A stretch of DNA of 64,000 bases from Longimicrobiales bacterium (GCA_965218325.1 CBDCKR010000002.1:2339869-2403868); one strand, 5' to 3'. Shown: positions 25,300 through 38,181, counted from the first letter of the stretch. Notes: generated from the sequence alone by a model not told the origin. Numbers and translations are program-made.

Positions 25300-25464
25300 G
25301 TGGCCCGCTACCAGACCAGCCTGGATCTCTTCTGGCTCCGGGACAAGAGCCTGACCGACCTCGAAACCTCCCTCGGCCGGACGAGCTCGCTGAGGAGATC
25401 ATCGAGAACCTAGCAGCCGGCCTCGACAAGCTTCCGGGAGGTTCTGCCGGGGCTCGGGAGCTGA
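25300..25464 (+). pseudogene. hsdM: Type I R-M methyltransferase (HsdM) extreme 3' remnant, two frameshifts
   Basis: ..ARYQTSLDLFWLRDKSLTDLE / NLPRPDELAEEIIENLAAGLD / FREVLPGLGS* matches the characteristic HsdM C-terminal tail (..LDIFWL.D.SL...NLP.P..LA.EI.E.L..AL..F..I). Confidence 0.55.
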
Positions 25465-25528
25465 GCAGTAGCCGTCCAGGTTGCAGCATACACGCGAGTC
25501 TCTCCGGATGCGACGCAACTCCGCCGCC

Positions 25529-27508
25529 TTACCATGTGGCGATCTCTTCGGCCGTGGCTGAGATGACTGCCCTCGCGAGTCCAGTCTGAGAGCGGATGAT
25601 CCCGAGGTTCTGCCATGCCACGAGGAACTTCGTGGCCAAATAGTCGCGGCTGTCTCCGCTGTGACCTTGAAGAACCTCAATTGCAGCATCGCGCGCCGCC
25701 GTCATACCCGCTGTGCACGCGTAGTTGATGTGGCATTGAAAGAAATCTGGGAAGCCGTCACGGAGAGCCTCAAACGTAGCCCGGTCGATGGAAAGCGCCT
25801 TTTGAAACGCCACGCTCGATGCGTCATCCTCAAACTGGCGGACCGCTCTCAGGTAGAGTGCGAGTTCGAACCTCACCAGGTCTACTGCGGGATGGCCGGG
25901 TCCTAACGCTTCATAGTCGATTAGGTGGACTTCGCTTTCGCCCCGGATTAGCACGTTTCGTAGATGGACATCCCCGTGCACGACGGCCGACCTCTCCATG
26001 CTCCGGAAGCGCTCCGCGGCCGCCTTCCGCGCTCTTATAGCGCAATCACCTAAGCCCCAGAGGAAACCGTCGCGCTCAAGTGCTTCCAGGTGTGTAGCGG
26101 GGGGGTTGACGAAGGATTCGAGATCGATACTTGGCGGGGGCGTGTACTTGTTAAGCTTTGCCAGGGTTTGGGCAACGCGCGCCAGCGCCCGCGCTAAGAA
26201 CAGCCGATCCTCCTCCACCCCATCCGGATGACTCTGCATCCACTGTCTATCCCAGAGCTTGCCCAATCGCTCCTCAAGGGACTCGGCCGGAAGTGAAGGG
26301 TTCCCGTCACCACTGACTAGGCCGAAGAGGATGACTGCGGCCTTCCCGTGAAAGTGACACTCAGGTCTCAGTGCATCGTTCCAGGGCCGTACAAACGTCC
26401 GGACCCGCCGCATCTCATCTAGCGCGAGGCGTTTAGACGTGATCTTGGCCACGAATGGCGGAGTCTCACCGCACATGACGGTTGCCAGCCTTGCTTCGGA
26501 AAGCCCTCCCGGTAGAAAGCGAACGGTTAGCGGCCTCGAATCCAATTCCGGATCGAAGCCCTCTGCCCGCACTCGGGCTCGTGCTGCCGCGACGAGCAGG
26601 TGAGCTTCGTCTGAGGTCAGATCACCTAGGACGAAAGACGCGGATTCATGAGATTGCAGCAGCTTCGCCGCATTCCGGAAGAAGGACAGCTCAGCGTCCC
26701 GGATCGTCCTATTCGTCCGAAACGAGATTGTGTCGTGTGAAACAGGGGTGCCGAGCTGTCGCACCGTCTTGATGATTTGAGACGCGCCGTCGCGGGAAAG
26801 CTGTAGCCCGGCAGCTTCGTGCACGCGAATCGCAATGAAGCTGGAATAACCCGCGAGGGTCTTGAAGAGGGCATTCTGGGCTGTCGCATCGAGGAGCGTG
26901 AGTCCTGACTCGTCGATCGCGCACCCACAGACATCGGTACTTGTAGCCAGCACCTTTGCTAGGTCAGCGGGGGTCTCGACGACCACAGGGTCCAACCCCT
27001 TTCTCTGAAGCAGCCTTCGGTTAGCGTGCTGATGATCGGGATGGCACAGCAGCAGGACCGTTGAATAGGCCAGCCGTTCCTCGGCTGTTTCAAGGCTCCC
27101 TTGGCCACGACGGTCCGGTGCTACAACTGGAGACGGAGCCTCCGTTGTCTCTTGCGCCGCAAGTGTTGGTGTTCCCCGCTGGGACCCATAGACTTCCAGC
27201 CGGGCGCTGGCGGGAATGACGTTGGCAACGGTCGCGCGCAAATGAGCCGGGAATCCACGCGCCATTTGAGCAAGCGGCGAAAGCTGGTCTCGACGTAGCT
27301 GGAGACCCCGCAGCAGCGTCCCCAGGCGCTTCGCTTGAGTGCGCTTAGAAAGAAGGGGATTCCGGCTGAGAGCATCCGATACGTCACGCACGAGCTGCAC
27401 GGCAGAGTCTCCAGTCGGGACCTGCCAGCGCCCCAACGCGAGCGCGTCCTGAGCAATCCGATCAGCGTTGGCCGCGACACCCTCGATGAACTCATCGCGC
27501 GTCATCAC
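25529..27508 (-). CDS. Multidomain protein: helical N-terminus, REC-like (flavodoxin-fold) domain, C-terminal APH/protein-kinase-like phosphotransferase domain
   Basis: REC-like: VLLLCHPD..DPVVVET..VCGCAIDES..SFIAIRV. Kinase N-lobe: FLPGGLSEARLATV..PFVAKIT..DEMRRV. Catalytic loop VVHGDVHLRNVLI and IDYE. GTG 27508 / ATG 27505 overlaps the ATPase stop. Confidence 0.75.
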   Translation of the reverse strand: MMTRDEFIEGVAANADRIAQDALALGRWQVPTGDSAVQLVRDVSDALSRNPLLSKRTQAKRLGTLLRGLQLRRDQLSPLAQMARGFPAHLRATVANVIPASARLEVYGSQRGTPTLAAQETTEAPSPVVAPDRRGQGSLETAEERLAYSTVLLLCHPDHQHANRRLLQRKGLDPVVVETPADLAKVLATSTDVCGCAIDESGLTLLDATAQNALFKTLAGYSSFIAIRVHEAAGLQLSRDGASQIIKTVRQLGTPVSHDTISFRTNRTIRDAELSFFRNAAKLLQSHESASFVLGDLTSDEAHLLVAAARARVRAEGFDPELDSRPLTVRFLPGGLSEARLATVMCGETPPFVAKITSKRLALDEMRRVRTFVRPWNDALRPECHFHGKAAVILFGLVSGDGNPSLPAESLEERLGKLWDRQWMQSHPDGVEEDRLFLARALARVAQTLAKLNKYTPPPSIDLESFVNPPATHLEALERDGFLWGLGDCAIRARKAAAERFRSMERSAVVHGDVHLRNVLIRGESEVHLIDYEALGPGHPAVDLVRFELALYLRAVRQFEDDASSVAFQKALSIDRATFEALRDGFPDFFQCHINYACTAGMTAARDAAIEVLQGHSGDSRDYLATKFLVAWQNLGIIRSQTGLARAVISATAEEIATW

Positions 27509-29442
27509 GTCTCCGCGTTCACTGTCTCCGCTATCTCGCCATCCGACCCAGCCAAGAGTTCGCCATAGTGGCGTTCGCGCTCAACGAATGCTTCTGCCCC
27601 TCCCTCCAGGAGGTCGAGAATCTCCTGTTTCCGGATGTCCACACTCCCAGTCAGTGCGGGCGCCGCCTTCGTCGGGCCTTCCATGCTCATCACTACGATT
27701 TTCTCTGCTTCACCCAGCACGGGAATGTTCGCATTGTGAGTGACAAATATCAGTTGCCGCTTGGACTTTAGCTGGCGTAACGTGGTGATCAACGAGTTGA
27801 AGACGAAGCTATTGTCCAAATCGTCCTCCGGCTGGTCGAACAGCAGAGGATAAGGCAGAGGCCGAAGAATGATCGGTAAGAGAGCTGTCGCCCGCTGACC
27901 CTTGGAGAGCGTCTCGACCGGCTTGGGTTCCCCCTCATCAAAGAGGGTGACCTCCAAGCGAGCCGCCGGAAGTTCTGTCTCAACGTCATACAAGTCGCGA
28001 TGATCGCCGAGGTGCGCGATGACCCGCGTCATCTGCCCCAGATCGCGCCCGAGAAGGTCCGCGAGTCGCTGCGCATCCCCTGTCTCAGTCAAGTCGATCA
28101 GCGTGCTAGGTTCAATGCGGTCTGCGATTGAGCGTGCTACCTCTTCTTGCGACCGGATCCGGGAACCAGTAAGAAACGCACTCAGGCGCCCAGCGTACGT
28201 GCGGCTGTTCCACGATGATCCCAGCGTGAGTTGGACGGTATCACCGTGCTCGCGGTTGATCGAATCGATCTCAGCGATTCGCAACTCGTAAAGTTGGTCA
28301 TCAATCCGCTGCAGTTCGCCACGCAGGTTCGTCCGTTCCTTCAGAAGACGCGACTCCTCCACCCGTGCCGCTTCTGCCTGCGTCTTCAGCTGTTCCAGAT
28401 GTTCCACCTGTCGCTTCAGGACGTGCTGCTGCTTGAGCGACTCATTCACGGCTTGCTCCTGCTGCCGTAACTGATAGTACAGCTCGCTCGCTTCCTCGAA
28501 GCGCCTATCGAGAGCATCGATGAGCGGCGCCAGGCGTACCGAATCTACCTTCTGGGCCACCGTCATGACTTCGCCAACGGCGGCAGCTAGGTCCATCAGC
28601 GGAGCCGTCTCGTCTCGCAAGGCGCTTTCCGTATCCGCCGTGACTGATGCTATAGACTCGGCAATTCGGCGGGCTGGCCCCCGAACACGTTCGAGACGAT
28701 CCGCAAGACCTTCCCGCTCGACCTCTACGCCCCTTACTGCTTCTAGCATTTTCTGTCGGCGCTCGTGGCTTTGGCGTTCCGCTTCTAACTCTGGACTCGC
28801 AGTAGGGGCTTCCTTCGTAAGACTATCGAGCTGACTCCGGGCTGCGTCTAGTTGGGTGATCTCGTGATCCAAGGTGGAGAGCTGCCCCCGGATCTTTCGG
28901 AGGCCAGGCCCAAGGTACCTCAGCCTCTCAGCTGTCTTCTGTCGTTCCGCATTCAGCTCTGCCACTTGGTTTCTGTGCGGACGGTCGATCAACGCAAGAC
29001 GTAACTTGTCATTGTCGTCCTCTGCGAGCCGTTGAAGGTCTCCCTGAGAAAAAATCTCGATGTCCCGAAGGAGGTCACGGTTCGTGTGTTCCCGAACTCC
29101 ATCTACGAAGATTCGCGGTTCGCCACCGACTTCGCGTTCGAGCGTGACCTCCTGCTGCGAACTGCTATCGGCAGTCTCAAGCGCACACCGCACGCTACCC
29201 GCGCGTAGCGTGTTCTTGATGATCCCGTATGTTGGCCACCTCGGCTCACCGTCGTCGTCCTCCCCGATGAGCGTGGCAACCCGGACCTCTTCCAACTCGA
29301 ACGCAAAGCGGATGCTCTCGATGAGTGTGGACTTGCATGTGCCCCGGGCACCGATGATGCAGGTGAGGCCACGCCCGAGGTCAACGGGACAGTCCTCCAA
29401 AAACCCCGACGAGGTTGATACCGCCTTCAGGTAGGTGCTCAT
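27505..29442 (-). CDS. SMC/ABC-type ATPase with long coiled-coil insert (TrlF-like AAA ATPase signature)
   Basis: Walker A GARGTCKSTLIES. About 330 aa of heptad-rich coiled coil. Signature LSKGQRATALL. Walker B LLFDQPEDDLDN. QLIFVTHNANIPVLGEAEKIVVM. Confidence 0.8.
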   Translation of the reverse strand: MSTYLKAVSTSSGFLEDCPVDLGRGLTCIIGARGTCKSTLIESIRFAFELEEVRVATLIGEDDDGEPRWPTYGIIKNTLRAGSVRCALETADSSSQQEVTLEREVGGEPRIFVDGVREHTNRDLLRDIEIFSQGDLQRLAEDDNDKLRLALIDRPHRNQVAELNAERQKTAERLRYLGPGLRKIRGQLSTLDHEITQLDAARSQLDSLTKEAPTASPELEAERQSHERRQKMLEAVRGVEVEREGLADRLERVRGPARRIAESIASVTADTESALRDETAPLMDLAAAVGEVMTVAQKVDSVRLAPLIDALDRRFEEASELYYQLRQQEQAVNESLKQQHVLKRQVEHLEQLKTQAEAARVEESRLLKERTNLRGELQRIDDQLYELRIAEIDSINREHGDTVQLTLGSSWNSRTYAGRLSAFLTGSRIRSQEEVARSIADRIEPSTLIDLTETGDAQRLADLLGRDLGQMTRVIAHLGDHRDLYDVETELPAARLEVTLFDEGEPKPVETLSKGQRATALLPIILRPLPYPLLFDQPEDDLDNSFVFNSLITTLRQLKSKRQLIFVTHNANIPVLGEAEKIVVMSMEGPTKAAPALTGSVDIRKQEILDLLEGGAEAFVERERHYGELLAGSDGEIAETVNAET

Positions 29443-29474
29443 AGCAGGTCACCGGGCAATTGGGCTTTGGCTTC

Positions 29475-29504
29475 TTGTTCGCAGCAAGGTATTAGTATTA
29501 TAAT
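29475..29504 (+). promoter_or_regulatory. Putative sigma70-type promoter giving a (near-)leaderless mRNA for the 29513 gene
   Basis: TTGTTC (29475-29480), 18-nt spacer, perfect TATAAT (29499-29504). The ATG at 29513 lies only 8 nt past the -10 box. No RBS. AT-rich divergent intergenic region. Confidence 0.4.
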
Positions 29505-29512
29505 CTCGTTCA

Positions 29513-30082
29513 ATGGATGAGATCAAGAGACCACGCGACTATAGCGTCCTGCTCAGGAAGCCGGGAGACGGGCCGGACGCCTGGGGAACGTCGGCCGGCA
29601 TCAACGTCTTCTCGAGACTCAATGCCGAGCTGGTCCGGCTCACGGACAGCACCGTCGTTGTACTCGACTACTCAGGCGTCGAGCGGACGGATGTGAGCTT
29701 TCAACGAGAGGGGGTAGTCGAGACGGTGAAAAAGCATCGTCCCCGGCTCCTCTTCATCGCCTCTAACGTGGGTGACGAAGACGTGCTCGCGAATCTGGGC
29801 GCGGCACTGGAGGCTCGCGGCGAAACTCTGCTCGTCCGGCAGCGGGGGGAGCCGCCGCGTATTCTCGGCCGCCGATTGGCCAAGGAGCACGAGGATACTC
29901 TTTGGGCGGTCCACGAGCATCCTGGGTTCACATCAACTCAGCTGACTGTCCCACCGTATGGACTCGAAGGGTCTACGGCCTCTGCACGGCTGACAGCACT
30001 CTGGAAGGCGGGGTTGCTGGGCCGCATCCAAGGAGCCTCTCCGAGCGGTGGCCGAGAGTACCGGTACTATCCGATCCGTTGA
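29513..30082 (+). CDS. STAS-like (DUF4325-type) domain fused to a winged-helix DNA-binding domain
   Basis: ..VVVLDYSGVERTDVSFQREGVVETV.. (STAS-like). C-terminal ..WAVHEHPGFTSTQLT..ASARLTALWKAGLLGRIQ..REYRYYP (MarR-like wHTH). Confidence 0.55.
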   Translation: MDEIKRPRDYSVLLRKPGDGPDAWGTSAGINVFSRLNAELVRLTDSTVVVLDYSGVERTDVSFQREGVVETVKKHRPRLLFIASNVGDEDVLANLGAALEARGETLLVRQRGEPPRILGRRLAKEHEDTLWAVHEHPGFTSTQLTVPPYGLEGSTASARLTALWKAGLLGRIQGASPSGGREYRYYPIR

Positions 30083-30532
30083 CGCGTACGGCAGACCCTG
30101 GACTTTCCTCGTCCTTGGCAAGGCTTTGCATGACCTCATCGACCTGCGACGGCGATACGGATCATTCCCCACGCGCCGTCTCGGCCATGCGCAGCAGGAT
30201 GTCACCGGCGATGCCGAGGTGGCGCACTCGCTGCTCGCCCTCCAGTTGCGCAAGAGGCTGCCGTTCGAGGCCGTACCTGTTCACGGGCCCATCGTCCTGC
30301 CGGCCCCGCCCGGAACGGGCAAGACCACCCTGGCGCGAGGGTTGGCGAACACGGTCGCCGAAGCGCTTGAGGGGGCGAAAGCGCATTTCATCCAGATCGA
30401 TCCGCACCCCTGGCTACCGCGGCCCTGGGGAGGAGCCAGAAGGAAGTCGCCGAGCTCCTCCACCAGATCATCAGTAAGACTTCGTCGCTCGACTTCCCCT
30501 ATGCTTTCTACAAACGGAGGTGCACCCCATGA
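30048..30532 (+). pseudogene. Truncated and frameshifted AAA+ ATPase (Walker A only, TRIP13/Pch2-like spacing)
   Basis: ..VHGPIVLPAPPGTGKTTLARGLANTVAEAL..HFIQIDPH, then in the +1-shifted frame PLATAALGRSQKEVAELLHQII..RRCTP*. Its TGA overlaps the Ubl ATG (ATGA). No Walker B. Confidence 0.55.
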
Positions 30533-30777
30533 ATGGTGACACGCAAATTTTCGTGAGCGGTCGCGAGTACAAGGTCCCTGGCAATGTCGTCAGCTACGAG
30601 CAGGTCGTGAAGATCTGGAACCAGCTGCACGAGGCGGAGAACAAGCACATCATCGGCACGCCCGGCATCGACTACGAAGACAGCTTGAAAGGCGAGGACG
30701 GTATTCTCCTTCCGGGCAAGGACGTTCAAGTCAAGGACGGCACGAGCTTTTCGGTAGATCCCGAGCATGTCTCCTAA
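30529..30777 (+). CDS. Single-domain multiubiquitin-family ubiquitin-like protein
   Basis: GGAGG RBS. MNGDTQIFVSGREYKVPGNVVSYEQVV..LLPGKDVQVKDGTSFSVDPEHVS fits the multiubiquitin beta-grasp pattern. Overlaps the E1 gene by 11 nt. Confidence 0.65.
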   Translation: MNGDTQIFVSGREYKVPGNVVSYEQVVKIWNQLHEAENKHIIGTPGIDYEDSLKGEDGILLPGKDVQVKDGTSFSVDPEHVS

Positions 30778-31969
30778 GGATCGCCTCTCCGCGTTCGCGG
30801 AGCAGGCCGGGTTTACCGTCAGGGTCGAATCCGACGTTGTCCTGGCCGTCCAGGTTCCTTGTCTCCTTGCAGATGGGGTTGTGGGCACTTGCACTATTGA
30901 GAAGTCCTACGACCCGGCGAGCGAGAAACCGAATGACCGGATAGGCGGCGCAGCCCATGCGGTGCGGATCACCACTGACGAAGAGCACGACGGGCGTGTG
31001 TACCACGCGGATGGGAACCCTATTGAGAGCCGCATCGACGGCGACGGAAAAACCTGGTCGAACATCTCCATCCGGAAAGGTAGCCAAGGCAGCCCGGAGG
31101 AGGACGAGTCGGTGAGCGACTTGATCCACCGCTATGCGAAGCAGATCGTCGGGGCCGTGTCGGCGGCTGGCTACTCCGAAACCGCTTCTCTCGCGATGCG
31201 GGGTCCGTTCAAGATACCCAACACTTTCGAGGCACGGGCGGCGATAGGCCCGGTTCAGGATCGAATCCGCGATCAGCGGATTGCGATCATCGGCCTAGGC
31301 GGAACGGGCGCCTACGTCCTGGATCTTGTTGCCAAGACGCCCGTGATGGAAATTCATCTTTTGGATTCCGACGACGTTAACTGGCACAACTTCATGCGGG
31401 CGCCCGGCGCACCTACTGCCGAGGAGATTGAGTCGCGTCGCAAGGAGCCTCTTCGCAAAGTGGACTACTACCACTCCAAGTACGCTTCCCTCCGGGAAGG
31501 CATTTACCCCCACGCTGTCCGGGTGGATAGCCCGTCCAAGTTCGCCGCGTTTCTATCAGCTCATCCCATTGACTATGGCTTCGTGTGTATCGACCAACTG
31601 ACTGACAGCGATTCGCCGCGTCAGGATGTCGTCTACGCTGCGCTCTCGGAGGCGAGCGTTCCGTTCATAGATTCCGGTGTAAGCATCACGCTGGACAACC
31701 GCGCCATTGGGGGCGCTGTCACCACGAGCGCCTACTCTGGAGGCTCGCTGGCGTGGCAGGATGCCATACCGAATGCCAGAGTTCACGGCGATCGTCCCCG
31801 CTATCGCAACGTTCAACTGCCGGAAGTGAACGCGTTGGCGGCAGCGCTTGCGGTGATGGAGTGGCGGCGGCGCACCGGGCAGTATGTCTCAGAGTCCACT
31901 TCGTTCCTCCATAAGTTCCGGCTCGAGGCGCCGCGCATTGTCCCACAGCGGACTGACTCACAGGAGTGA
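30767..31969 (+). CDS. ThiF/E1-like adenylyltransferase with a ~130-aa N-terminal extra domain (possibly E2-like)
   Basis: Rossmann motif RIAIIGLGGTGAYVLDLVAKTPVMEIHLLDSDDV..NFMR, FVCIDQ, PFIDSG. The N-terminal domain is ..VQVPCLLADGVVGTCTIEKS..GRVYHADGNPIESRIDGDG.. Confidence 0.75.
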   Translation: MSPKDRLSAFAEQAGFTVRVESDVVLAVQVPCLLADGVVGTCTIEKSYDPASEKPNDRIGGAAHAVRITTDEEHDGRVYHADGNPIESRIDGDGKTWSNISIRKGSQGSPEEDESVSDLIHRYAKQIVGAVSAAGYSETASLAMRGPFKIPNTFEARAAIGPVQDRIRDQRIAIIGLGGTGAYVLDLVAKTPVMEIHLLDSDDVNWHNFMRAPGAPTAEEIESRRKEPLRKVDYYHSKYASLREGIYPHAVRVDSPSKFAAFLSAHPIDYGFVCIDQLTDSDSPRQDVVYAALSEASVPFIDSGVSITLDNRAIGGAVTTSAYSGGSLAWQDAIPNARVHGDRPRYRNVQLPEVNALAAALAVMEWRRRTGQYVSESTSFLHKFRLEAPRIVPQRTDSQE

Positions 31970-32391
31970 GGCCGGTGAGACTCCGCCCCTTCTTCGTAGA
32001 CGTATTGCCCGATTTTGACGCAATCAAAGCCGGTGAGCTCTGGATTAGCCACAGATACCGGACTGTCAACTTGCGCTGCCCCTGCGGTTGTGGCGATCTG
32101 ACCGTCCTGTCTCTCCACCCAAGTCGGTGGCACGTTCATTTCGATGGCAAGTCGGTCTCTCTGGACGGTCCTACGGGTGGGTCCGTGTGGGCCAATTCCG
32201 GCTGCGGCAGCCACTACTTCATAAGGAACAACGCCGTCATTTGGGCACGTAGAATCGATCCAGGCCGTCATTTGGAGTATGCCCAAGTCGAGCGGACCCG
32301 GCTGATTGCGTCTCACCGGAGCCGTCTGGCGTGGCGCTCCTGGCTCAAACGTGTATGCCGCTGTCTTTCGCTACGGAGTTGGCGTAAGTAG
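31966..32391 (+). CDS. DUF6527-family Zn-ribbon-like protein
   Basis: ..GELWISHRYRTVNLRCPCGCGDLTVLSLHP..WANSGCGSHYFIRNNAVIW.. The GTG start overlaps the E1 stop (GTGA). Confidence 0.6.
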   Translation: MRPVRLRPFFVDVLPDFDAIKAGELWISHRYRTVNLRCPCGCGDLTVLSLHPSRWHVHFDGKSVSLDGPTGGSVWANSGCGSHYFIRNNAVIWARRIDPGRHLEYAQVERTRLIASHRSRLAWRSWLKRVCRCLSLRSWRK

Positions 32392-32528
32392 AGCTCGAGC
32401 GGGCGAGGAGACCAGCCTGCTGAAGCGTCCAGTGGCCAGCCCGCCCTCCCGGGGGTCACTCCAGGCGTCGGTCCCGTCTCAATGGTCGCCGTGGGAAGCC
32501 TGTCGAGTGCCGCTGAGAGCGCGGCGGC

Positions 32529-32650
32529 TCACAAGATCAGTCCGGCGTCCAAGTCTCGGCTCTCGCCAGCCAGGTAGGCAGCCCAGTCGTCCATGAGTCC
32601 CCGCCGGCGCTCGAACAGATCCGTGCGCCGATAGGCCGCCTCGGCACAGT
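32529..32650 (-). pseudogene. Tyrosine integrase C-terminal remnant
   Basis: ..AEAAYRRTDLFERRRGLMDDWAAYLAGES..* parallels the C-terminus of int at 20673 (VEAAYARSDLFERRRVLMDNWAAYL). It is cut off at hairpin repeat copy 3. Confidence 0.65.
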
Positions 32651-32661
32651 ACAGATGACGT

Positions 32662-32722
32662 AATTCACGGCAAGTGATCGTCTAAATTCGACTAGGACTG
32701 CACGATCTGCCGCACTTGCCGT
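32662..32722 (-). repeat. Hairpin repeat family, copy 3
   Basis: AATTCACGGCAAGTGATCGTCTAAATTCGACTAGGACTGCACGATCTGCCGCACTTGCCGT. Confidence 0.7.
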
Positions 32723-32749
32723 CCGACGATATCAGCAACCTGCCTTGAG

Positions 32750-33215: not shown

Positions 33216-33944
33216 TCAATAGTCACTCCAATAGACCTCGGTCGCGAGATATTCGAACAGCACAGACCTGACGAGGTTCCCGCCGCATTGCTCCACGTGA
33301 AAGCGGTAGACACCGTCCTGTACGATGACCCAGCCATCACTCATGTCCTGCCCCGTGACGACACGCGTCATCATCCGGCTACCCAATTCGGCGGGCCACG
33401 GCGCCAGTGCTCCGGCCCTGCCGACAGTATCGAATTCCTCGCGCTCCGCCACCGTCATCGAGACCAGAGGCAGTGTCCAGACATGCTCCGGCTCGGTCAG
33501 CATCGGTTCTCCGCATTCGTAGAACGTGTGGCCGCGCGCGTTCTTGACGACGATACGCTCTACCCTCTTCGTTTCAGGCTTCCAGACGTAGCGCGTCTCG
33601 CCGCCGATGGTCTGGTATTCCGTCTTCGATCGCTCGATCCTGGCGCGCAGTCCCCGGTGGCGTCGTAAAGCACGCGCGACCTTTTTGTCCGTGTGTTGCT
33701 CCGGGTTTGTCGAACCGACGAGCACACAGTATAGGCACAGCGACAGGTATTCCTCGTCCGGTGAAAGACCGTTGTTGCAGGTGGTACAGATTGCGATGAC
33801 GGGGAGGTTGTCCGGGTAGGGCTTACGCAAGAGACCCTTGGACGGAACGTGATCCCTGCTGGTGTCTACTTCGCCGATCCCTGCGCCGCACTGAATACAC
33901 CACGATTTTTGCCGTTCGTCGACGTATTAGTTGATGTAGTCCAT
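33216..33944 (-). pseudogene. HNH endonuclease-domain protein with an in-frame TAA at codon 6
   Basis: GAGG RBS plus ATG at 33944: MDYIN-TAA(33927-33929)-YVDERQKSWCIQCGAGIGEVDTSRDHVPSKG..NLPVIAICTTCNNGLSPDEEYL (HNH motif), then a ~170-aa C-terminal domain. The only downstream start is a TTG at 33830, inside the HNH motif. Confidence 0.65.
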
Positions 33945-33953
33945 CTGCCTGCC

Positions 33954-34634
33954 TCAGGTCTCTATGCGGCAGTCCAGCTTGACCGCTTCCATGCGCACGC
34001 CGGAAAGCGTCGCGATGCGCTTGCGCGCCCGATCCATGACATCGGCGATCGTTTGCGGCTCCGGCGTGGCGGGAGCGCCGACCGCTTCGCCATCCTCCTC
34101 CTCCGCGGCCGGTTCGGCCTCGGTCTCCGCGATCAGCCTTTCGAGCGGGAAGGCGGCGATCGGCGGATACACCGCCGCGAGCCCCGCGCCGGCGCTGGCC
34201 GGGAGACCCCGGTCGTCTTCGTCGAGACCCAGCCACATCCCGAAATCGTCTCGCACCGTCTGCCTGGCGCCGATCCTGGCCGCGCGGGACTCGTCGAACC
34301 GCTTTCGAACTTCCTCTGCGTCGAACCTGTAGACCTCGACGTTCCGCGGATCGTCGCGATCATCCACCGCGGCGACGATGACGATGTCCACGTCATCAAG
34401 CGTTTTCCATTCCGTTCCCTTCTTCAGAGGCTGGAAAGCGAACCACCTGTCCTTCGTAGTGCGGATAGAGACGCGCTTGTGTCGCCCGCTTTCCTCAACC
34501 TCCCAGACATTGGACCGGCCTCGGCCCGGCACCCGCTTGGGTGCGAATCCTGCATCCCCCAGTGCGCGCGTCGCCGCGCCCACTAGTATGCTCCATGTCC
34601 GAGATTCAGACATTTCGTTGAATCGGTTCGACAT
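33954..34634 (-). CDS. Hypothetical protein; N-terminal half possibly PD-(D/E)xK-like, acidic C-terminal tail
   Basis: ATG at 34634. ..ALGDAGF..SNVWEVEESGRHKRVSIRTTKD..VDIVIVAAVDD.. 19 nt upstream of the HNH gene. Confidence 0.4.
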   Translation of the reverse strand: MSNRFNEMSESRTWSILVGAATRALGDAGFAPKRVPGRGRSNVWEVEESGRHKRVSIRTTKDRWFAFQPLKKGTEWKTLDDVDIVIVAAVDDRDDPRNVEVYRFDAEEVRKRFDESRAARIGARQTVRDDFGMWLGLDEDDRGLPASAGAGLAAVYPPIAAFPLERLIAETEAEPAAEEEDGEAVGAPATPEPQTIADVMDRARKRIATLSGVRMEAVKLDCRIET

Positions 34635-34940
34635 AGTGCGCGCTCCAGTGTATGTAGTTGTTGACGTATCCACACACTATATATAATAGAATGAGACCTT
34701 ATGCAAGTGAATATCAGACGGTTTGGCACACTTCGAAACGAATAGCGCACATCGCCTAGGGGTTGATGACAAAAAAGGAGAGTTGCCGCGTCCCTGCGTC
34801 GGCTGCAGCGAGGCCGTATGTCAGACTAAACTGTGGCTAGGTCCAGCTGATGAGGCCTTTGGCGAGACGCACGGTGATGGTCTCGATCCCCACAGAGCAC
34901 AGGCGCCCCACTGACCTGCCCCCAAGAGTGGTACCACATC

Positions 34941-35838
34941 CTATGTTAGTCCCAGCACCTGTGGAGGGCCGTGAAGGACGGGCATCCTCAGGAACCAGGG
35001 CGACGGCTTAATCGCCTCAGGGGCCGGGGGAAAGCCGCCGCAGGCGCTGTGGGGTCGGACGGTATTGTACTCGCGCCTCCATTGCTCGACCAGCACGGCC
35101 GCCTCCGCCAACGAGTAGAAGATCTCCCCGTTCAACAGCTCGTCCCTGAGCTTGCCGTTGAAGCTCTCGTTGTAGCCGTTCTCCCACGGGCTGCCCGGCT
35201 CGATAAAGAGCATCTCGACGCCCACGCGCCCCAACCACCGCCGCACGAGCTTCGCGGTGAACTCCGGTCCGTTGTCCCGACCTCAGATACTCGGGAGGCC
35301 CGTGTCGGACGAACAGATCGGCCAGCACCTCGAGCACGTCGTGCGAGCGGATCTTGCGAGCCACCACGATCGCCAGGCACTCCCTCGTGTGCTCGTCCAG
35401 CACTGTCAGCAGCTTCAGCGCACGCCCGTCGTGCGTCCTCGAGGCCACGAAGTCGTACGACCAGACGTGGCCCCGATACAGCGGCCTCAGCCGGATGCAC
35501 GATCCGTCGTTGAGCCACAGCCGACCTCGCTTCGGCTGCCGCTGCGGGACCTTCAGCCCCTCCTGCCTCCAGATCCGCTCCACCCGCTTGTGGTTCACCC
35601 CCCAGCCCTCGATGCGGAGCATGTCCGTGACGCGTCGGTAGCCGTAGCGGCCGAATCGACTCGCAAGTCGCACGATATCACCTCGGAGCGCCCCCTCGTC
35701 ACTCGCCACTTTCCTCGCCCGGCGCTGGGTCGTGCGTGGCTGCCCGAGCACCCGGCACGCTCTCCTCTCCGACGCCCCGAGCTGCTGACGTACACGCACC
35801 ACACAACGTCGTCGGCGCTCGGGGCTCAGAAGTTTCCC
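34941..35838 (-). pseudogene. IS3 transposase OrfB (rve/DDE), disrupted by a 1-nt insertion near 35270
   Basis: ..HVWSYDFVASRTHDGRALKLLTVLDEHTRECL..HGPPEYLRS, then a frame change to ..MLFIEPGSPWENGYNESFNGKLRDELL..YNTVRPHS. TCGGGACAAC is found where TCGGACAAC (S-D-N) is expected. Confidence 0.85.
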
Positions 35839-36104
35839 TCGGCCGCTTCCTCCAGGATCAGCTTGTCCAGTGTCAAGTCCGCCACTGCTCGCTTCAGGCG
35901 CCCGTTCTCGCGCTCGAGCTCCTTCAGGCGCCGTGCCTGGCTCACCTTCATCCCGCCGTACTCCCGCCTCCACCGGTAGTACGTCTGCTCGGTGATGCCC
36001 AGCTCCCGGCTGATCAGCTTCACGGATTTGCCGCGGGCCAGACCCACCTCTGCCTCCCGCAGTGCAGTGATGATCTGCTCCGGAGTGTGTCGCTTCCTTC
36101 CCAT
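35826..36104 (-). CDS. IS3 transposase OrfA (HTH)
   Basis: MGRKRHTPEQIITALREAEVGLARGKSVKLISRELGITEQTYYRWRREYGG..LKELERENGRLKRAVADL. Confidence 0.9.
   Translation of the reverse strand: MGRKRHTPEQIITALREAEVGLARGKSVKLISRELGITEQTYYRWRREYGGMKVSQARRLKELERENGRLKRAVADLTLDKLILEEAAEGNF
35832..35838 (-). promoter_or_regulatory. Programmed -1 frameshift heptamer G GGA AAC at the orfA/orfB junction
   Basis: GGGAAAC lies 6 nt before the orfA stop. The -1 frame reads GKLLSPERRRRCVV.. into orfB. Confidence 0.6.
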
Positions 36105-36174
36105 CCTGACCTCCTCGCTGAAAAGCTTCAGACCAGGTCGATCCTAACATTGCACCTGGTCTCGTTTCAGGGGG

Positions 36175-37393: not shown

Positions 37394-37561
37394 ATGGCCA
37401 GACCGCCGAAGGAAACGGTTGTTAGCAAGCGGGACCGGGAGGAGCTCGAAGGGTGGTTGCGAGCAGGCAACACGCCCAAGAAGCTTGCCGAGCGCGCACA
37501 GATTCTTCTGGGATTCGCCGACGGAGAGACCTCCACCGAGATCGCCGAGCGGCTGGGTCTA
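37394..37561 (+). pseudogene. IS630-family orf1 N-terminal (HTH) fragment
   Basis: MARPPKETVVSKRDREELEGWLRAGNTPKKLAERAQILLGFADGETSTEIAERLGL. Runs in frame straight into the IS110 fragment. Confidence 0.6.
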
Positions 37562-38030
37562 ATGGAAGAGGTTAGCCTCATCGGGATCGATCTGGCAAAG
37601 CGCAGCTTTCAGGTGCACGGGGCGAGGGCGGACGGGTCGGTGGCGTACCGCAGGAAGCTGAGCCGCGGGAAGCTGCTGAGCTTTCTGGCCTCGCAGCCGC
37701 CGTGCACGGTGGCGATGGAGGCCTGCGCCGGCGCCCACTACTGGGGCCGACAGATCGTGGCGCTCGGCCACGAAGTGAGGCTGGTCCCCCCGATCTACGT
37801 GAAGCCCTTCGTCAAGCGTAGCAAGAACGACGCAGCCGACGCGGAGGCGATCACGGAAACGGCGCAGCGACCGACCATGCACTTCGTGGCGGTCAAGACC
37901 GAGGCACAGCAGGCGCAGGGGATGCTCTTTCGCACGCGCGACCTGCTGGTGCGCCAGCGCACGCAGACGATCAACGCGCTTCGGGGTCACCTGGCCGAGT
38001 ACGGCGTCGTGGCTCCGCAGGGCAGGGCAG
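37562..38030 (+). pseudogene. IS110-family transposase N-terminal fragment (DEDD domain), 3'-truncated
   Basis: MEEVSLIGIDLAKRSFQVHGA..CTVAMEACAGAHYWGRQ..LVPPIYVKPFVKRSKNDAADAEAI..LVRQRTQTINALRGHLAEYGVV. The C-terminal domain is missing. Confidence 0.75.
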
Positions 38031-38084
38031 TGATTTCGCGACCTGTGACGACGGCGGGGATTCCCGCCATCCGACCCCCTTTTT

Positions 38085-38181
38085 CCCGCTATCGCGACAC
38101 GGTGACATCAGGTGCGGCCCAACGGCAAGAGTGGCAGATCGTGCAGCCCTGATTGAACTTACGTGATCTCCTGCCGTGATT
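38085..38181 (+). repeat. Hairpin repeat family, copy 4
   Basis: ..ACGGCAAGAGTGGCAGATCGTGCAGCCCTGATTGAACTTACGTGATCTCCTGCCGTGATT. About 90% identical to copy 2. Confidence 0.7.

What the first reader, a model, noticed from the sequence alone, without database searches (positions are those of the whole stretch)
30529..32391. Ubiquitin-like conjugation operon: multiubiquitin Ubl, ThiF/E1 with an extra N-terminal domain, DUF6527 Zn-ribbon protein; no cysteine where an E1 thioester would form
Seen in sequence: three overlapping genes (11-nt overlap, then a GTGA overlap).
- The 82-aa product fits the multiubiquitin beta-grasp pattern, but ends ..DGTSFSVDPEHVS with no terminal Gly-Gly.
- The E1 has the Rossmann motif GLGGTG..DSDDV.
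- Its adenylation domain contains one Cys only (FVCIDQ, a core strand) and none in the crossover-loop region, which is Ser/Thr-rich (VTTSAYSGGS).
- Its ~130-aa N-terminal domain (..RVYHADGNPIESRIDGDG..) could be a divergent E2-like fold.
- DUF6527 carries CPCGCG...C.SH metal ligands.
- No JAB or other peptidase gene is present. The operon is followed directly by an integrase remnant.

Established knowledge: Iyer, Burroughs and Aravind predicted such multiubiquitin/E1/DUF6527-type operons. As far as I recall, related 'Bub' operons were recently reported to use oxyester (serine) intermediates and to be defence-associated.

Inference: this locus is a member or variant, possibly lacking its peptidase.
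Basis: partly seen in the sequence, partly recalled or inferred. Interest (0 to 1): 0.8.

Follow-up and report, generated by a model that had tools for sequence, protein, structure and literature searches.

The report
Complete Type II Bub ubiquitin-like operon

Summary
The three overlapping genes are real and are a complete Type II Bub (formerly 6E.2/DUF6527) operon, as described by Ye, Gong, Chambers and Corbett (bioRxiv 10.1101/2024.11.21.623953).

- **BubA (30529-30777):** a single beta-grasp Ubl.
- **BubBD (30767-31969):** an E2-E1 fusion.
- **BubE (31966-32391):** DUF6527, a zinc-binding Ser-His protease.

Every residue the paper names as catalytic is present, except that the E2 Lys at Ser+2 is Arg (R103) with K104 adjacent. 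In BubBD these are E2 H64 and S101, adenylation R211 and crossover-loop Y346. In BubE they are C38/C40/C42/C80 plus S73/H83, each exactly 19 positions below the Citrobacter numbering.

All 83 homologous loci keep BubE directly after BubBD. All 72 recovered BubAs end in Ser, as does the crystallised E. coli BubA (PDB 9cd2). So the absent Gly-Gly, absent Cys and absent JAB are family norms. No peptidase was lost, because DUF6527 is the peptidase.

The locus belongs to a divergent sub-branch. Its E2-like domain escapes Pfam DUF6791 but matches it by profile comparison (97%). The sub-branch is spread across several phyla of MAGs.

The most interesting by-product is next door: a conserved cassette of a CapS-like repressor, an SMC-like ATPase and an APH/TCAD9 kinase, with no CapK.

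Verdict: a new member of a known kind, of modest interest.

The parts
30516..30520 (+). Shine-Dalgarno-like GGAGG, 8 nt upstream of the bubA ATG
   Evidence: Read directly from the sequence. It supports the ATG at 30529 over the GTG at 30520 as the start codon.
30529..30777 (+). bubA: an 82-aa ubiquitin-like protein with a single beta-grasp domain, ending in Ser82 (codon 30772-30774)
   Evidence: Pfam Multi_ubiq scores 28.8 bits against a cutoff of 24.5. [quoted passage not shown] G58, F74, V76 and S82 are invariant in the alignment. All 72 BubAs recovered end in Ser.
30767..31180 (+). bubBD, N-terminal E2-like (BubB) domain, residues 1-138. The conserved active-site residues are H64 (30956-30958) and S101 (31067-31069); R103/K104 stand where most relatives have Lys at Ser+2.
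   Evidence: H64 is conserved in 99% and S101 in 94% of 99 diverse relatives, and both in 120 of 120 close relatives. hhalign against the DUF6791-type N-domains gives 97.2% probability, E = 4.7e-11. The AF2 model has pLDDT 95 and an alpha1 / four-strand sheet / long alpha2 layout. Foldseek finds no significant match, only weak hits about half of which are E2 enzymes.
31214..31969 (+). bubBD, E1 adenylation (BubD) domain, residues ~150-400. It has the nucleotide-binding GLGGTG motif, D200/D202, R211 (31397-31399), K231, D276, D302 and the crossover-loop Tyr Y346 (31802-31804). There is no Cys in the crossover loop.
   Evidence: Pfam ThiF scores 39.7 bits. The invariant columns are listed. Y346 lies in the conserved Y-x(1-2)-N-x-Q motif, present in 98 of 99 relatives. 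The best structural matches are Citrobacter BubCD chains (9eav, 9eae, 9ea5; E about 1e-12 to 1e-10). The crossover loop (residues 338-346) has pLDDT below 50, consistent with a mobile loop.
31966..32391 (+). bubE: a 141-aa DUF6527 protein. The C4 zinc site is C38/C40/C42/C80, the catalytic dyad is S73 (32182-32184) and H83 (32212-32214), and the C-terminal tail is rich in Trp, Leu and Arg.
   Evidence: Pfam DUF6527 scores 57.8 bits; the same family is labelled BubE in the precomputed annotation. All six residues sit exactly 19 positions below Citrobacter C57/C59/C61/S92/C99/H102. A BubE ORF lies directly after BubBD in 83 of 83 loci. The protein is full length and its tail is conserved.
30084..30528 (+). 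Frameshifted, 3'-truncated remnant of a classic AAA+ ATPase gene, lying between capS-like and bubA. It is not part of the operon.
   Evidence: Pfam AAA scores 21.5 bits on the Walker A region. The reading frame switches after FIQIDPH. The frame-repaired fragment aligns with p97/VCP and Pch2 across the shift. No counterpart lies near any other Bub locus.
29513..30082 (+). capS-like gene (STAS-wHTH repressor homologue, 189 aa), upstream neighbour. Whether it is linked to the Bub operon is uncertain.
   Evidence: It aligns over its full length with two PDB sequences deposited as a MarR-family and a winged-helix regulator (9z72/9z73 and 9z71; E = 6e-9 and 1.5e-7). I identify these as the CapS structures of PMC13373217 from their chain lengths and protomer counts; no CapS name is attached to the entries. 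The conserved STAS Ser is retained as S62 (TDVSF, against TDASF in L044 CapS, which has a CapK next to it). The conserved cassette ends at 30113.
32529..32681 (-). C-terminal remnant (about 50 codons) of a tyrosine integrase
   Evidence: The translation reads ...AEAAYRRTDLFERRRGLMDDWAAYLAGESRDLDAGLIL*. A nucleotide match to the 3' end of an intact integrase gene in L086 has E = 8e-13. No Pfam hit was found, because the fragment is too short.

Best explanation

**Proposed mechanism.** It is inferred by homology to the Citrobacter and E. coli ZDHYS365 systems, whose biochemistry is published.
1. The E1 domain of BubBD, probably acting as a homodimer, binds the 82-aa beta-grasp protein BubA. It adenylates the carboxylate of BubA's C-terminal Ser82, using the GLGGTG/D200/R211/K231 site.
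2. Tyr346 on the mobile crossover loop attacks the adenylate, forming a BubA~Tyr oxyester.
3. BubA passes to Ser101 of the fused E2-like domain, assisted by His64 and a nearby basic residue (R103/K104), forming a BubA~Ser oxyester.
4. BubA is then transferred to a lysine of a target that is still unknown.
5. BubE removes BubA from conjugates. BubE is a Zn-stabilised beta-sandwich protease with an S73-H83 dyad and an amphipathic C-terminal tail, and it acts as the pathway's deconjugating, negative-regulatory enzyme.

**Shown here:** gene content, synteny, conservation of every named residue, the E1 fold, and the beta-grasp assignment. **Inferred:** all the chemistry, dimerisation, the targets, and the biological role (stress response or anti-phage defence).
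For: - **Family assignment.** All three Pfam hits are above cutoff. The architecture matches the published Type II definition: Ubl + E2-E1 fusion + DUF6527, with no JAB.
- **BubBD residues.** H64, S101, R211, K231 and Y346 are conserved in 94-100% of 99 diverse relatives and in 120 of 120 close relatives. Canonical relatives carry Ser at 105-107, Arg at 217-220 and Tyr at 339-343 in the same alignment columns, matching the published E. coli S106, R219 and Y342.
- **BubE residues.** C38/C40/C42/S73/C80/H83 are in exact register with Citrobacter C57/C59/C61/S92/C99/H102.
- **Synteny.** BubE lies directly downstream of BubBD in 83 of 83 loci, usually with the same 4-nt overlap. A BubA ending in Ser lies upstream in 72 of them.
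- **BubA.** Its profile matches the third beta-grasp of PDB 9cd2 with E = 7e-22, including the terminal Ser.
- **Structure.** The full-length AF2 model has pLDDT 86.6, and its best PDB matches are Citrobacter BubCD.
- **E2-like domain.** It is homologous to the DUF6791-type domain (hhalign 97%).
- **Intactness.** None of the three genes has a frameshift or internal stop, and BubE is full length with the conserved tail.
Against: - The E2 fold of the N-terminal domain was not confirmed by my own structural test. Foldseek against the PDB gave no significant match (best E = 0.07, TM <= 0.41). hhalign against a canonical E2 (UBE2D3) gave 0.4% probability.
- The window's N-domain matches no Pfam family, whereas 23 of 30 relatives match DUF6791.
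- The Lys found at Ser+2 in 76% of relatives is Arg here (R103), with K104 adjacent.
- The chemistry has only been shown for Citrobacter and E. coli proteins, which are distant from this sub-branch (about 30% identity or less).
- Published BubE activity in vitro was very weak.
- No phage protection has been demonstrated for any Bub operon (PMC13373217).
- No dedicated regulator can be assigned to this copy.
Confidence: 0.88

Rival explanations
1. The operon is a decayed or incomplete Bub variant that lost a JAB (or other) peptidase gene at about 32.4 kb when the adjacent mobile element rearranged.
For: An integrase remnant lies 138 nt after bubE. IS3- and IS110-family elements lie within 6 kb. 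An AAA+ pseudogene sits immediately upstream. The locus is therefore in a rearranged region.
Against: None of the Type II loci whose gene tables were examined has a called JAB/JAMM gene (L001 and L002). BubBD is followed directly by BubE in 83 of 83 loci; I did not run a JAB-specific scan across all 83. The published definition states that Type II operons typically lack JAB and that BubE is the peptidase. BubA is made as a free protein ending in the family's invariant Ser, so no processing peptidase is needed. All three genes are intact.
Confidence: 0.03
2. The three proteins do not conjugate proteins. Instead they form a ThiF/MoeB-type sulfur-carrier or peptide-modification pathway (as with ThiS-ThiF or MccB), in which the small beta-grasp protein is only adenylated or thiocarboxylated.
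For: The E1 domain also resembles MccB, ThiF, MoeB and UBA5 structurally (E about 1e-10 to 1e-9). There is no catalytic Cys. The Ubl does not end in Gly-Gly.
Against: The best structural matches are BubCD. The fused E2-like domain with invariant His and Ser, and the obligatory DUF6527 protease, have no role in sulfur transfer. No thiamine, molybdopterin or sulfurtransferase gene was seen among the neighbours scanned. ATP-, Tyr- and Ser-dependent conjugation has been published for the E. coli Type II homologue.
Confidence: 0.04
3. The operon is a cargo module controlled by the upstream cassette. The CapS-like repressor would be inactivated by the divergently encoded APH/TCAD9 kinase (helped by the SMC-like ATPase) in place of the missing GHKL kinase CapK, so that Bub is switched on by a damage or infection signal.
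For: - The CapS-like gene sits upstream of bubA on the same strand.
- CapS normally needs CapK, and no CapK is detectable in the 64-kb window.
- The STAS Ser is retained (S62), and the kinase has intact HGDVHLRN and DYE motifs.
- In L087 the kinase is only 47% identical, yet the same divergent ATPase-kinase / CapS-like arrangement is again followed by a Ubl-conjugation operon, of a different type: Ubl, a 120-aa protein and a JAB-E1 fusion.
- The cargo downstream of the cassette varies, as it does for the published Cap regulators.
Against: - Cassette homology stops 31 nt after capS, and a 446-bp spacer holding a pseudogene separates it from bubA.
- In L086 the genes after capS-like are convergent (Kiwa), so they cannot be its cargo.
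- The ATPase-kinase pair occurs without CapS-like in L088, L090 and L091, and in L089 it is paired with an HTH-M78 regulator. This suggests the pair is itself the regulated cargo.
- Only 1 of 5 contexts of the close cassette carries Bub.
Confidence: 0.15

Closest known systems
Type II Bub operon (6E.2 / DUF6527 operons): BubA, BubBD, BubE. Reference system: E. coli ZDHYS365 (Ye, Gong, Chambers, Corbett, bioRxiv 10.1101/2024.11.21.623953).
   Same: The gene order and content are the same: Ubl, E2-E1 fusion, DUF6527, with overlapping genes and no JAB. The Ubl ends in Ser. The E2 domain has His and Ser, the E1 domain has Arg and a crossover-loop Tyr, and no catalytic Cys is present. BubE has the C4 zinc site, the Ser-His dyad and a hydrophobic tail.
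   Different: - BubA has one beta-grasp domain (82 aa), whereas the E. coli protein has three.
- Its C-terminal motif is FSVDPEHVS, against F.VT.TDKS.
- The E2-like domain is too divergent to match Pfam DUF6791. It has Arg at Ser+2 and two sub-branch-specific Cys residues (C32, C42).
- The crossover motif is Y-x-N-x-Q, against Y-x-x-N-x-Q.
- BubE has Ser-x6-Cys spacing (as in Type I Citrobacter BubE), against Ser-x7-Cys in the other Type II loci.
- No CapW, CapH+CapP or CapK+CapS regulator can be assigned.
Type I Bub operon (6E.1): BubAB, BubCD, BubE. Reference system: Citrobacter sp. RHBSTW-00271 (PDB 9ea4, 9ea5, 9ea8, 9eae, 9eav).
   Same: The E1 domain is the closest solved structure. The BubE residues are in exact register (offset 19). 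The oxyester logic is the same, with Tyr on the E1 and Ser on the E2.
   Different: Type I fuses the Ubl to the E2 and a JAB peptidase to the E1. Its Ubl C-terminus is a Gly exposed by JAB cleavage, and its E2 uses Ser+His+Asp. In this locus the Ubl is free, the E2 is fused to the E1, and there is no JAB.
Type II CBASS Cap2/Cap3, and Bil (BilABCD) operons
   Same: They are bacterial E1/E2-based conjugation systems found in defence contexts. Cap2 is also an E2-E1 fusion.
   Different: They use catalytic cysteines (thioesters) and JAB-family peptidases. They have no DUF6527. Sequence matches to PADLOC E1-E2 models and to Cap2 are confined to the nucleotide-binding loop.
CapK+CapS regulators (PMC13373217)
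   Same: The upstream 189-aa protein is a full-length CapS homologue (STAS + wHTH) that retains the conserved STAS Ser. It lies upstream of a Bub operon, as in 231 published cases.
   Different: No GHKL kinase CapK is present. Instead the gene is part of a conserved cassette with a divergent SMC/TrlF-like ATPase and an APH/TCAD9 kinase. The cassette boundary excludes the Bub operon.

Membership tests
Type II Bub operon | Three-gene architecture: Ubl (BubA), E2-E1 fusion (BubBD), DUF6527 (BubE), typically without a JAB/JAMM gene | tested here: met
   ORFs and overlaps. Pfam Multi_ubiq, ThiF and DUF6527 are all above cutoff. The same order is seen in 83 of 83 loci for BubBD-BubE, and in 72 loci for BubA.
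Type II Bub operon | The E1 lacks a catalytic Cys and has an invariant Tyr on the crossover loop (E. coli Y342) | tested here: met
   Y346 lies in the conserved Y-x-N-x-Q motif. Tyr is present in 98 of 99 diverse and 120 of 120 close relatives. The window protein has no Cys in residues 305-350.
Type II Bub operon | Intact adenylation site (E. coli R219 and the nucleotide-binding glycine loop) | tested here: met
   G176, G178, G179, G181, D186, D200, D202, R211 and K231 fall in invariant columns.
Type II Bub operon | E2 domain with an invariant Ser (E. coli S106) accompanied by invariant His and Lys | tested here: inconclusive
   Ser (S101) and His (H64) are present and conserved. The Lys I could identify, at Ser+2, is conserved in only 76% of relatives and is R103 here, with K104 adjacent (116 of 120 close relatives). 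I could not see the paper's Figure 3f to confirm which Lys is meant.
Type II Bub operon | The N-terminal domain of BubBD adopts a UBC/E2-like fold | tested here: inconclusive
   The confident AF2 model (pLDDT 95) has an alpha1 / four-strand sheet / alpha2 topology. Foldseek gives only non-significant hits, about half of them E2 enzymes. hhalign against UBE2D3 is negative. Homology to the DUF6791-type BubB domain is strong (97%).
Type II Bub operon | BubE (DUF6527): C4 zinc site plus Ser-His catalytic dyad | tested here: met
   C38, C40, C42, C80, S73 and H83 correspond to Citrobacter C57, C59, C61, C99, S92 and H102, each shifted by 19. DUF6527 scores 57.8 bits.
Type II Bub operon | BubE carries a terminal extension rich in exposed hydrophobic residues | tested here: met
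   The C-terminal 46 residues are 39% hydrophobic and 28% basic, rich in Trp and Leu, and conserved in the sub-branch.
Type II Bub operon | BubA is a beta-grasp Ubl whose free C-terminus is the conjugated end | tested here: met
   Multi_ubiq is above cutoff. The BubA profile matches the third beta-grasp of PDB 9cd2 with E = 7e-22, end to end. The terminal Ser is invariant in 72 of 72 BubAs. Conjugation itself was not tested.
Type II Bub operon | ATP-dependent conjugation through Tyr and Ser oxyester intermediates, and deconjugation by BubE | not testable with these tools
   This needs biochemistry. It has been published only for the Citrobacter and E. coli systems.
Type I Bub operon | Ubl-E2 fusion (BubAB) and JAB-E1 fusion (BubCD) | tested here: not met
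   BubA is a separate 82-aa gene. The E1 protein's N-terminal domain is E2-like and has no JAMM motif. No JAB was found by Pfam.
CapK+CapS-regulated immune operon | capK (HTH-STAS-GHKL kinase) and capS (STAS-wHTH) lie immediately upstream on the same strand | tested here: not met
   A CapS homologue is present, but no CapK is detectable in the window by tblastn with a bona fide CapK from L044. The genes upstream of capS-like are divergent and unrelated to CapK.

The most novel reading that the evidence does not exclude
The CapS-like repressor next to this Bub operon belongs to a previously undescribed three-gene cassette with an SMC/TrlF-like ATPase and an APH-fold TCAD9 kinase. In this cassette a protein-kinase-fold enzyme would replace the GHKL kinase CapK as the enzyme that phosphorylates the STAS serine (S62). 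That would couple a new sensor to expression of Ubl-conjugation cargo: Bub here, and a JAB-E1/E2/Ubl operon in the distant relative L087.
Probability: 0.12. Interest if true: 0.65.

Novelty: new member of a known kind. Interest (0 to 1): 0.3.

Why it matters
**The finding itself.** It mainly clarifies how to read such loci. In Type II Bub operons the absence of a cysteine, a Gly-Gly tail and a JAB gene are the family's defining peculiarities, not defects. A DUF6527 gene should be annotated as the peptidase BubE.

**What is mildly useful.**
- This sub-branch supplies a minimal, single-beta-grasp (82-aa) BubA and a divergent E2-like domain that current Pfam models miss. Both could help define which residues are truly essential.
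- Near-identical operons in MAGs assigned to at least seven phyla point to active horizontal transfer, which is consistent with a defence or stress role that has not yet been demonstrated for any Bub operon.

**The neighbouring cassette.** The cassette of CapS-like gene, ATPase and kinase is the part most likely to repay further work, either as a candidate regulator or as a candidate defence system.

Tried and rejected
- **Y323 as the E1 nucleophile.** I first took Y323 (in TSAYSGGS) for the catalytic Tyr. The alignment shows that the family-conserved Tyr is Y346.
- **Loss of the CapS phospho-serine.** I first thought the CapS-like protein had lost its phospho-acceptor Ser (V61). A CapS with a neighbouring CapK in L044 reads TDASF, so the conserved Ser is the next position, which is S62 here.
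- **BubE regex.** My S-x6-C-x2-H regex missed BubE in the distant loci, which have S-x7-C. An iterated HMM then found BubE in 83 of 83 loci.
- **Sequence searches that reached nothing useful.** BubA alone and BubE alone against PDB sequences gave no meaningful hits. The BubBD profile against PDB reached only E1 domains, not BubB or other E2s.
- **Tests of the N-domain fold.** Foldseek gave no significant match, and hhalign against UBE2D3 was negative.
- **PADLOC v2.** It has no models for BubA or BubE, and only weak E1-E2 loop matches for BubBD.
- **Paper supplement.** Table S1 of the Bub paper is not held, so I could not check whether this sub-branch is in the published catalogue.
- **Regulatory elements.** The promoter, terminator and inverted-repeat scans of the capS-bubA spacer gave nothing above chance.
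- **AAA-like ORF as a fourth component.** The ORF at 30048-30539 was considered and rejected. It is a frameshifted pseudogene with no counterpart at other Bub loci.


Full report
**1.

The three + strand ORFs are at 30529-30777 (82 aa), 30767-31969 (400 aa) and 31966-32391 (141 aa). They overlap by 11 nt and then by 4 nt (GTGA). A GGAGG lies 8 nt upstream of the first ATG.

Each product scores above the curated Pfam cutoff: Multi_ubiq 28.8 bits against 24.5, ThiF 39.7 against 28.1, and DUF6527 57.8 against 23.6.

A roughly 50-codon C-terminal remnant of a tyrosine integrase lies on the minus strand at 32529-32681. It matches the 3' end of an intact integrase gene in another contig.

**2. What the locus is**

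The multiubiquitin/E1/DUF6527 operons that had been predicted bioinformatically ('6E') have since been characterised and renamed Bub (bioRxiv 10.1101/2024.11.21.623953).

- **Type II Bub (6E.2)** is defined as BubA (Ubl), BubBD (E2-E1 fusion) and BubE (DUF6527), "typically" without a JAB/JAMM peptidase.
- **The chemistry is oxyester-based.** A tyrosine on the E1 crossover loop (E. coli Y342) and a serine in the E2 domain (E. coli S106) carry the Ubl.
- **DUF6527 is a new serine protease.** It has a Ser-His dyad and a C4 zinc site, and it removes BubA from conjugates.

The window's gene set is exactly this architecture. In the protein database's precomputed annotation PF20137 is already labelled 'BubE'.

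**3. Residue-level tests**

*BubBD.* The family is large. One search returned 1863 hits, including the identical protein, which is already in NCBI. The representative library holds 801 clusters at 50% identity.

In an alignment of 99 full-length, diverse representatives, these window residues fall in conserved columns:
- in the N-terminal domain: H64 (99%), G83, S101 (94%) and Y123;
- in the adenylation domain: G176, G178, G179, G181, D186, D200, D202, R211, K231, D276 and D302.

The crossover loop holds a Tyr in 98 of 99 sequences. In the window it is Y346, within RYRNVQ. The motif is Y-x-N-x-Q in this sub-branch and Y-x-x-N-x-Q elsewhere.

Canonical relatives have Ser at 105-107, Arg at 217-220 and Tyr at 339-343 in those same columns. 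That agrees with the published E. coli S106, R219 and Y342. In the 120 closest relatives, H64, S101, R211, K231 and Y346 are invariant.

The one departure concerns the lysine. Lys at Ser+2 occurs in 76% of the diverse set, but here that position is R103, followed by K104.

*BubE.* C38, C40, C42, S73, C80 and H83 match Citrobacter C57, C59, C61, S92, C99 and H102, each shifted by exactly 19 positions. The protein is full length, and its Trp/Leu/Arg-rich C-terminal tail is conserved. That tail corresponds to the hydrophobic extension described for BubE.

*BubA.* A profile of C-terminal beta-grasp domains that includes the window protein matches residues 143-222 of the crystallised E. coli ZDHYS365 BubA (PDB 9cd2) with E = 7e-22, running to the last residue.

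**4. Co-conservation and the 'missing' features**

A scan of one genome per species returned 80 loci.
- Counting the window, L001 and L002 as well, 83 of 83 loci have a BubE ORF directly after BubBD, mostly with the same 4-nt overlap.
- 72 loci yielded an upstream BubA, and all 72 end in Ser: 22 in ...VS, as here, and the rest in ...KS...RS...QS or ...LS.
- The biochemically active E. coli BubA also ends ...TQTDKS.

The absent Gly-Gly is therefore normal for the family. BubA needs no processing, and nothing suggests that a peptidase gene was lost. The membership claim stands, and the 'lacking its peptidase' inference falls.

**5. Structure**

A full-length AF2 model built from 40 diverse sequences is confident (pLDDT 86.6). 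Only the crossover loop (residues 338-346) is disordered, as expected for a mobile catalytic loop. Its best PDB matches are Citrobacter BubCD chains (E about 1e-12), ahead of MccB, UBA5, ThiF and MoeB.

The N-terminal domain modelled alone is very confident (pLDDT 95, pTM 0.89). It shows a helix, a four-strand sheet, a set of short strands bearing S101, and a long helix. Three further tests gave mixed results:
- Foldseek found no significant PDB match (best E = 0.07), though about half of the top 50 weak hits are UBC/E2 enzymes.
- hhalign against UBE2D3 was negative.
- 23 of 30 diverse N-domains match Pfam DUF6791, while the window's sub-branch matches nothing. Even so, the two groups are homologous by profile-profile comparison (97.2%, E = 4.7e-11), with His, Gly, Ser and Tyr in register.

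I therefore treat 'homologous to the BubB/E2-like domain' as shown, and 'UBC fold' as inherited from the literature and not independently confirmed here.

**6. Mechanism**

The mechanism is inferred by homology; none of it was tested here.
1. The BubBD E1 domain adenylates the carboxylate of BubA Ser82.
2. Y346 takes BubA as a tyrosyl oxyester.
3. S101 of the E2-like domain takes it as a seryl oxyester, helped by H64 and by R103/K104.
4. BubA is transferred to a lysine on an unknown target.
5. BubE (S73/H83, with zinc bound by C38/C40/C42/C80) reverses the modification.

The biological role is still open. The authors note that no Bub operon has yet been shown to protect against phage (PMC13373217).

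**7. Distribution**

Relatives at 57-87% identity occur in MAGs assigned to Chloroflexota (Dehalococcoidia), Acidobacteriota, Alphaproteobacteria, Binatia, Gemmatimonadota (Longimicrobiales), Latescibacterota and Acidimicrobiales. Several are on complete chromosomes. This suggests horizontal spread of the sub-branch. Regulators differ between copies: CapH+CapP in L002 and seven other loci, and CapK+CapS in L044.

**8. Neighbourhood (outside the finding)**

The 189-aa gene at 29513-30082 is a full-length CapS homologue. It matches PDB 9z72/9z73 and 9z71, deposited as MarR-family and winged-helix regulators (E = 6e-9 and 1.5e-7). I identify those entries as CapS from their chain lengths and protomer counts. 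The protein retains the conserved STAS Ser (S62). No CapK exists in the window.

Instead, the gene forms a roughly 4.7-kb cassette (25453-30113) with a divergent SMC/TrlF-like ATPase and an APH/TCAD9 kinase. The cassette is about 91% identical in four other contigs, each with different downstream genes.

More distant homologues of the kinase (47-66% identity) always keep the ATPase. Their other partner varies:
- a CapS-like gene followed by a different Ubl/E2/JAB-E1 operon in L087;
- an HTH-M78 regulator in L089;
- neither in L088, L090 and L091. L092, at 72% identity, also keeps the ATPase, but the contig ends within that gene, so its upstream side cannot be read.

The simplest reading is that the ATPase-kinase pair is a self-contained candidate defence unit, and that in some lineages the CapS-like protein is its regulator. 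A link to Bub remains possible but is unsupported: a 446-bp spacer holding a frameshifted AAA+ pseudogene separates the cassette from bubA.

**9. Verdict**

This is a complete, intact Type II Bub operon from a divergent sub-branch, so it is a new member of a known kind. However, those oddities are the published hallmarks of the family, and the supposedly missing peptidase is the DUF6527 protein.

Noticed in passing
window 25453-30113 (kinase 25529-27508 -, ATPase 27505-29442 -, capS-like 29513-30082 +): A conserved three-gene cassette. It holds an APH-fold kinase with a TCAD9 domain (intact HGDVHLRN and DYE motifs), an SMC-like ATPase whose nearest NCBIfam families are the TrlF/Ppl anti-phage ATPases (below cutoff), and a divergently transcribed CapS-like STAS-wHTH repressor. 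No GHKL kinase CapK is present. The cassette is about 91% identical in four other contigs, each with different downstream genes. The ATPase-kinase pair persists in homologues down to 47% identity. It is not in PADLOC v2.
   Followed up: partly
L087 838-8097: In a distant relative (kinase 47% identical) the same arrangement recurs: an ATPase-kinase pair divergent from a CapS-like gene (E = 3e-66 to the window's). It is followed by a different Ubl-conjugation operon: a Multi_ubiq Ubl that also ends in Ser, a 120-aa protein, and a 452-aa JAB-E1 fusion with a JAMM motif and CxxC cysteines, with no DUF6527.
   Followed up: partly
window 30084-30528 (+): A frameshifted, 3'-truncated remnant of a classic AAA+ ATPase gene (Walker A GPPGTGKT-like; similar to p97/VCP and Pch2) fills the spacer between capS-like and bubA. 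It is present only here and in the near-identical contig L001.
   Followed up: yes
window 32529-32681 (-) and 32664-32733: A C-terminal remnant of a tyrosine integrase and an adjacent short sequence. They match the 3' end and the flank of intact integrase genes in L085 and L086, which suggests a decayed integrative element bordering the Bub operon.
   Followed up: partly
window 34941-36150 (-) and 37394-38152 (+): IS elements: an IS3-family transposase (HTH_Tnp_1 at 35826-36104, rve_3 at 34941-35246, apparently split by the usual frameshift) and an IS110-family DEDD transposase. Together with the integrase remnant they mark a region rich in mobile elements.
   Followed up: no
L003-L024 (genome-contig loci): Bub operons 57-87% identical to the window's occur in MAGs assigned to at least seven phyla, several on closed chromosomes. 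One Rhodobacter MAG carries two copies (L021 and L022). This pattern suggests recent horizontal transfer.
   Followed up: partly
window 30860-30862 and 30890-30892 (BubBD C32 and C42): Two cysteines in the E2-like domain are invariant in the 120 closest relatives, but they are not conserved in the wider family (position 42 is Gly in 84%). Their role is unknown; a disulfide or a metal site are possibilities.
   Followed up: no
window 33216-33830 (-) and 33954-34673 (-): Two ORFs of 204 and 239 aa just beyond the integrase remnant have no Pfam, PADLOC or NCBIfam match, and no homologue in any fetched locus.
   Followed up: no
L001 (whole locus; window 27021-32501): A 2x-coverage metagenome contig is 99.93% identical to the window across the ATPase, capS-like and Bub genes. 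It has apparent frameshifts in the ATPase, capS-like and bubE genes, most likely assembly errors. It diverges from the window after 32501, into an IS element.
   Followed up: partly
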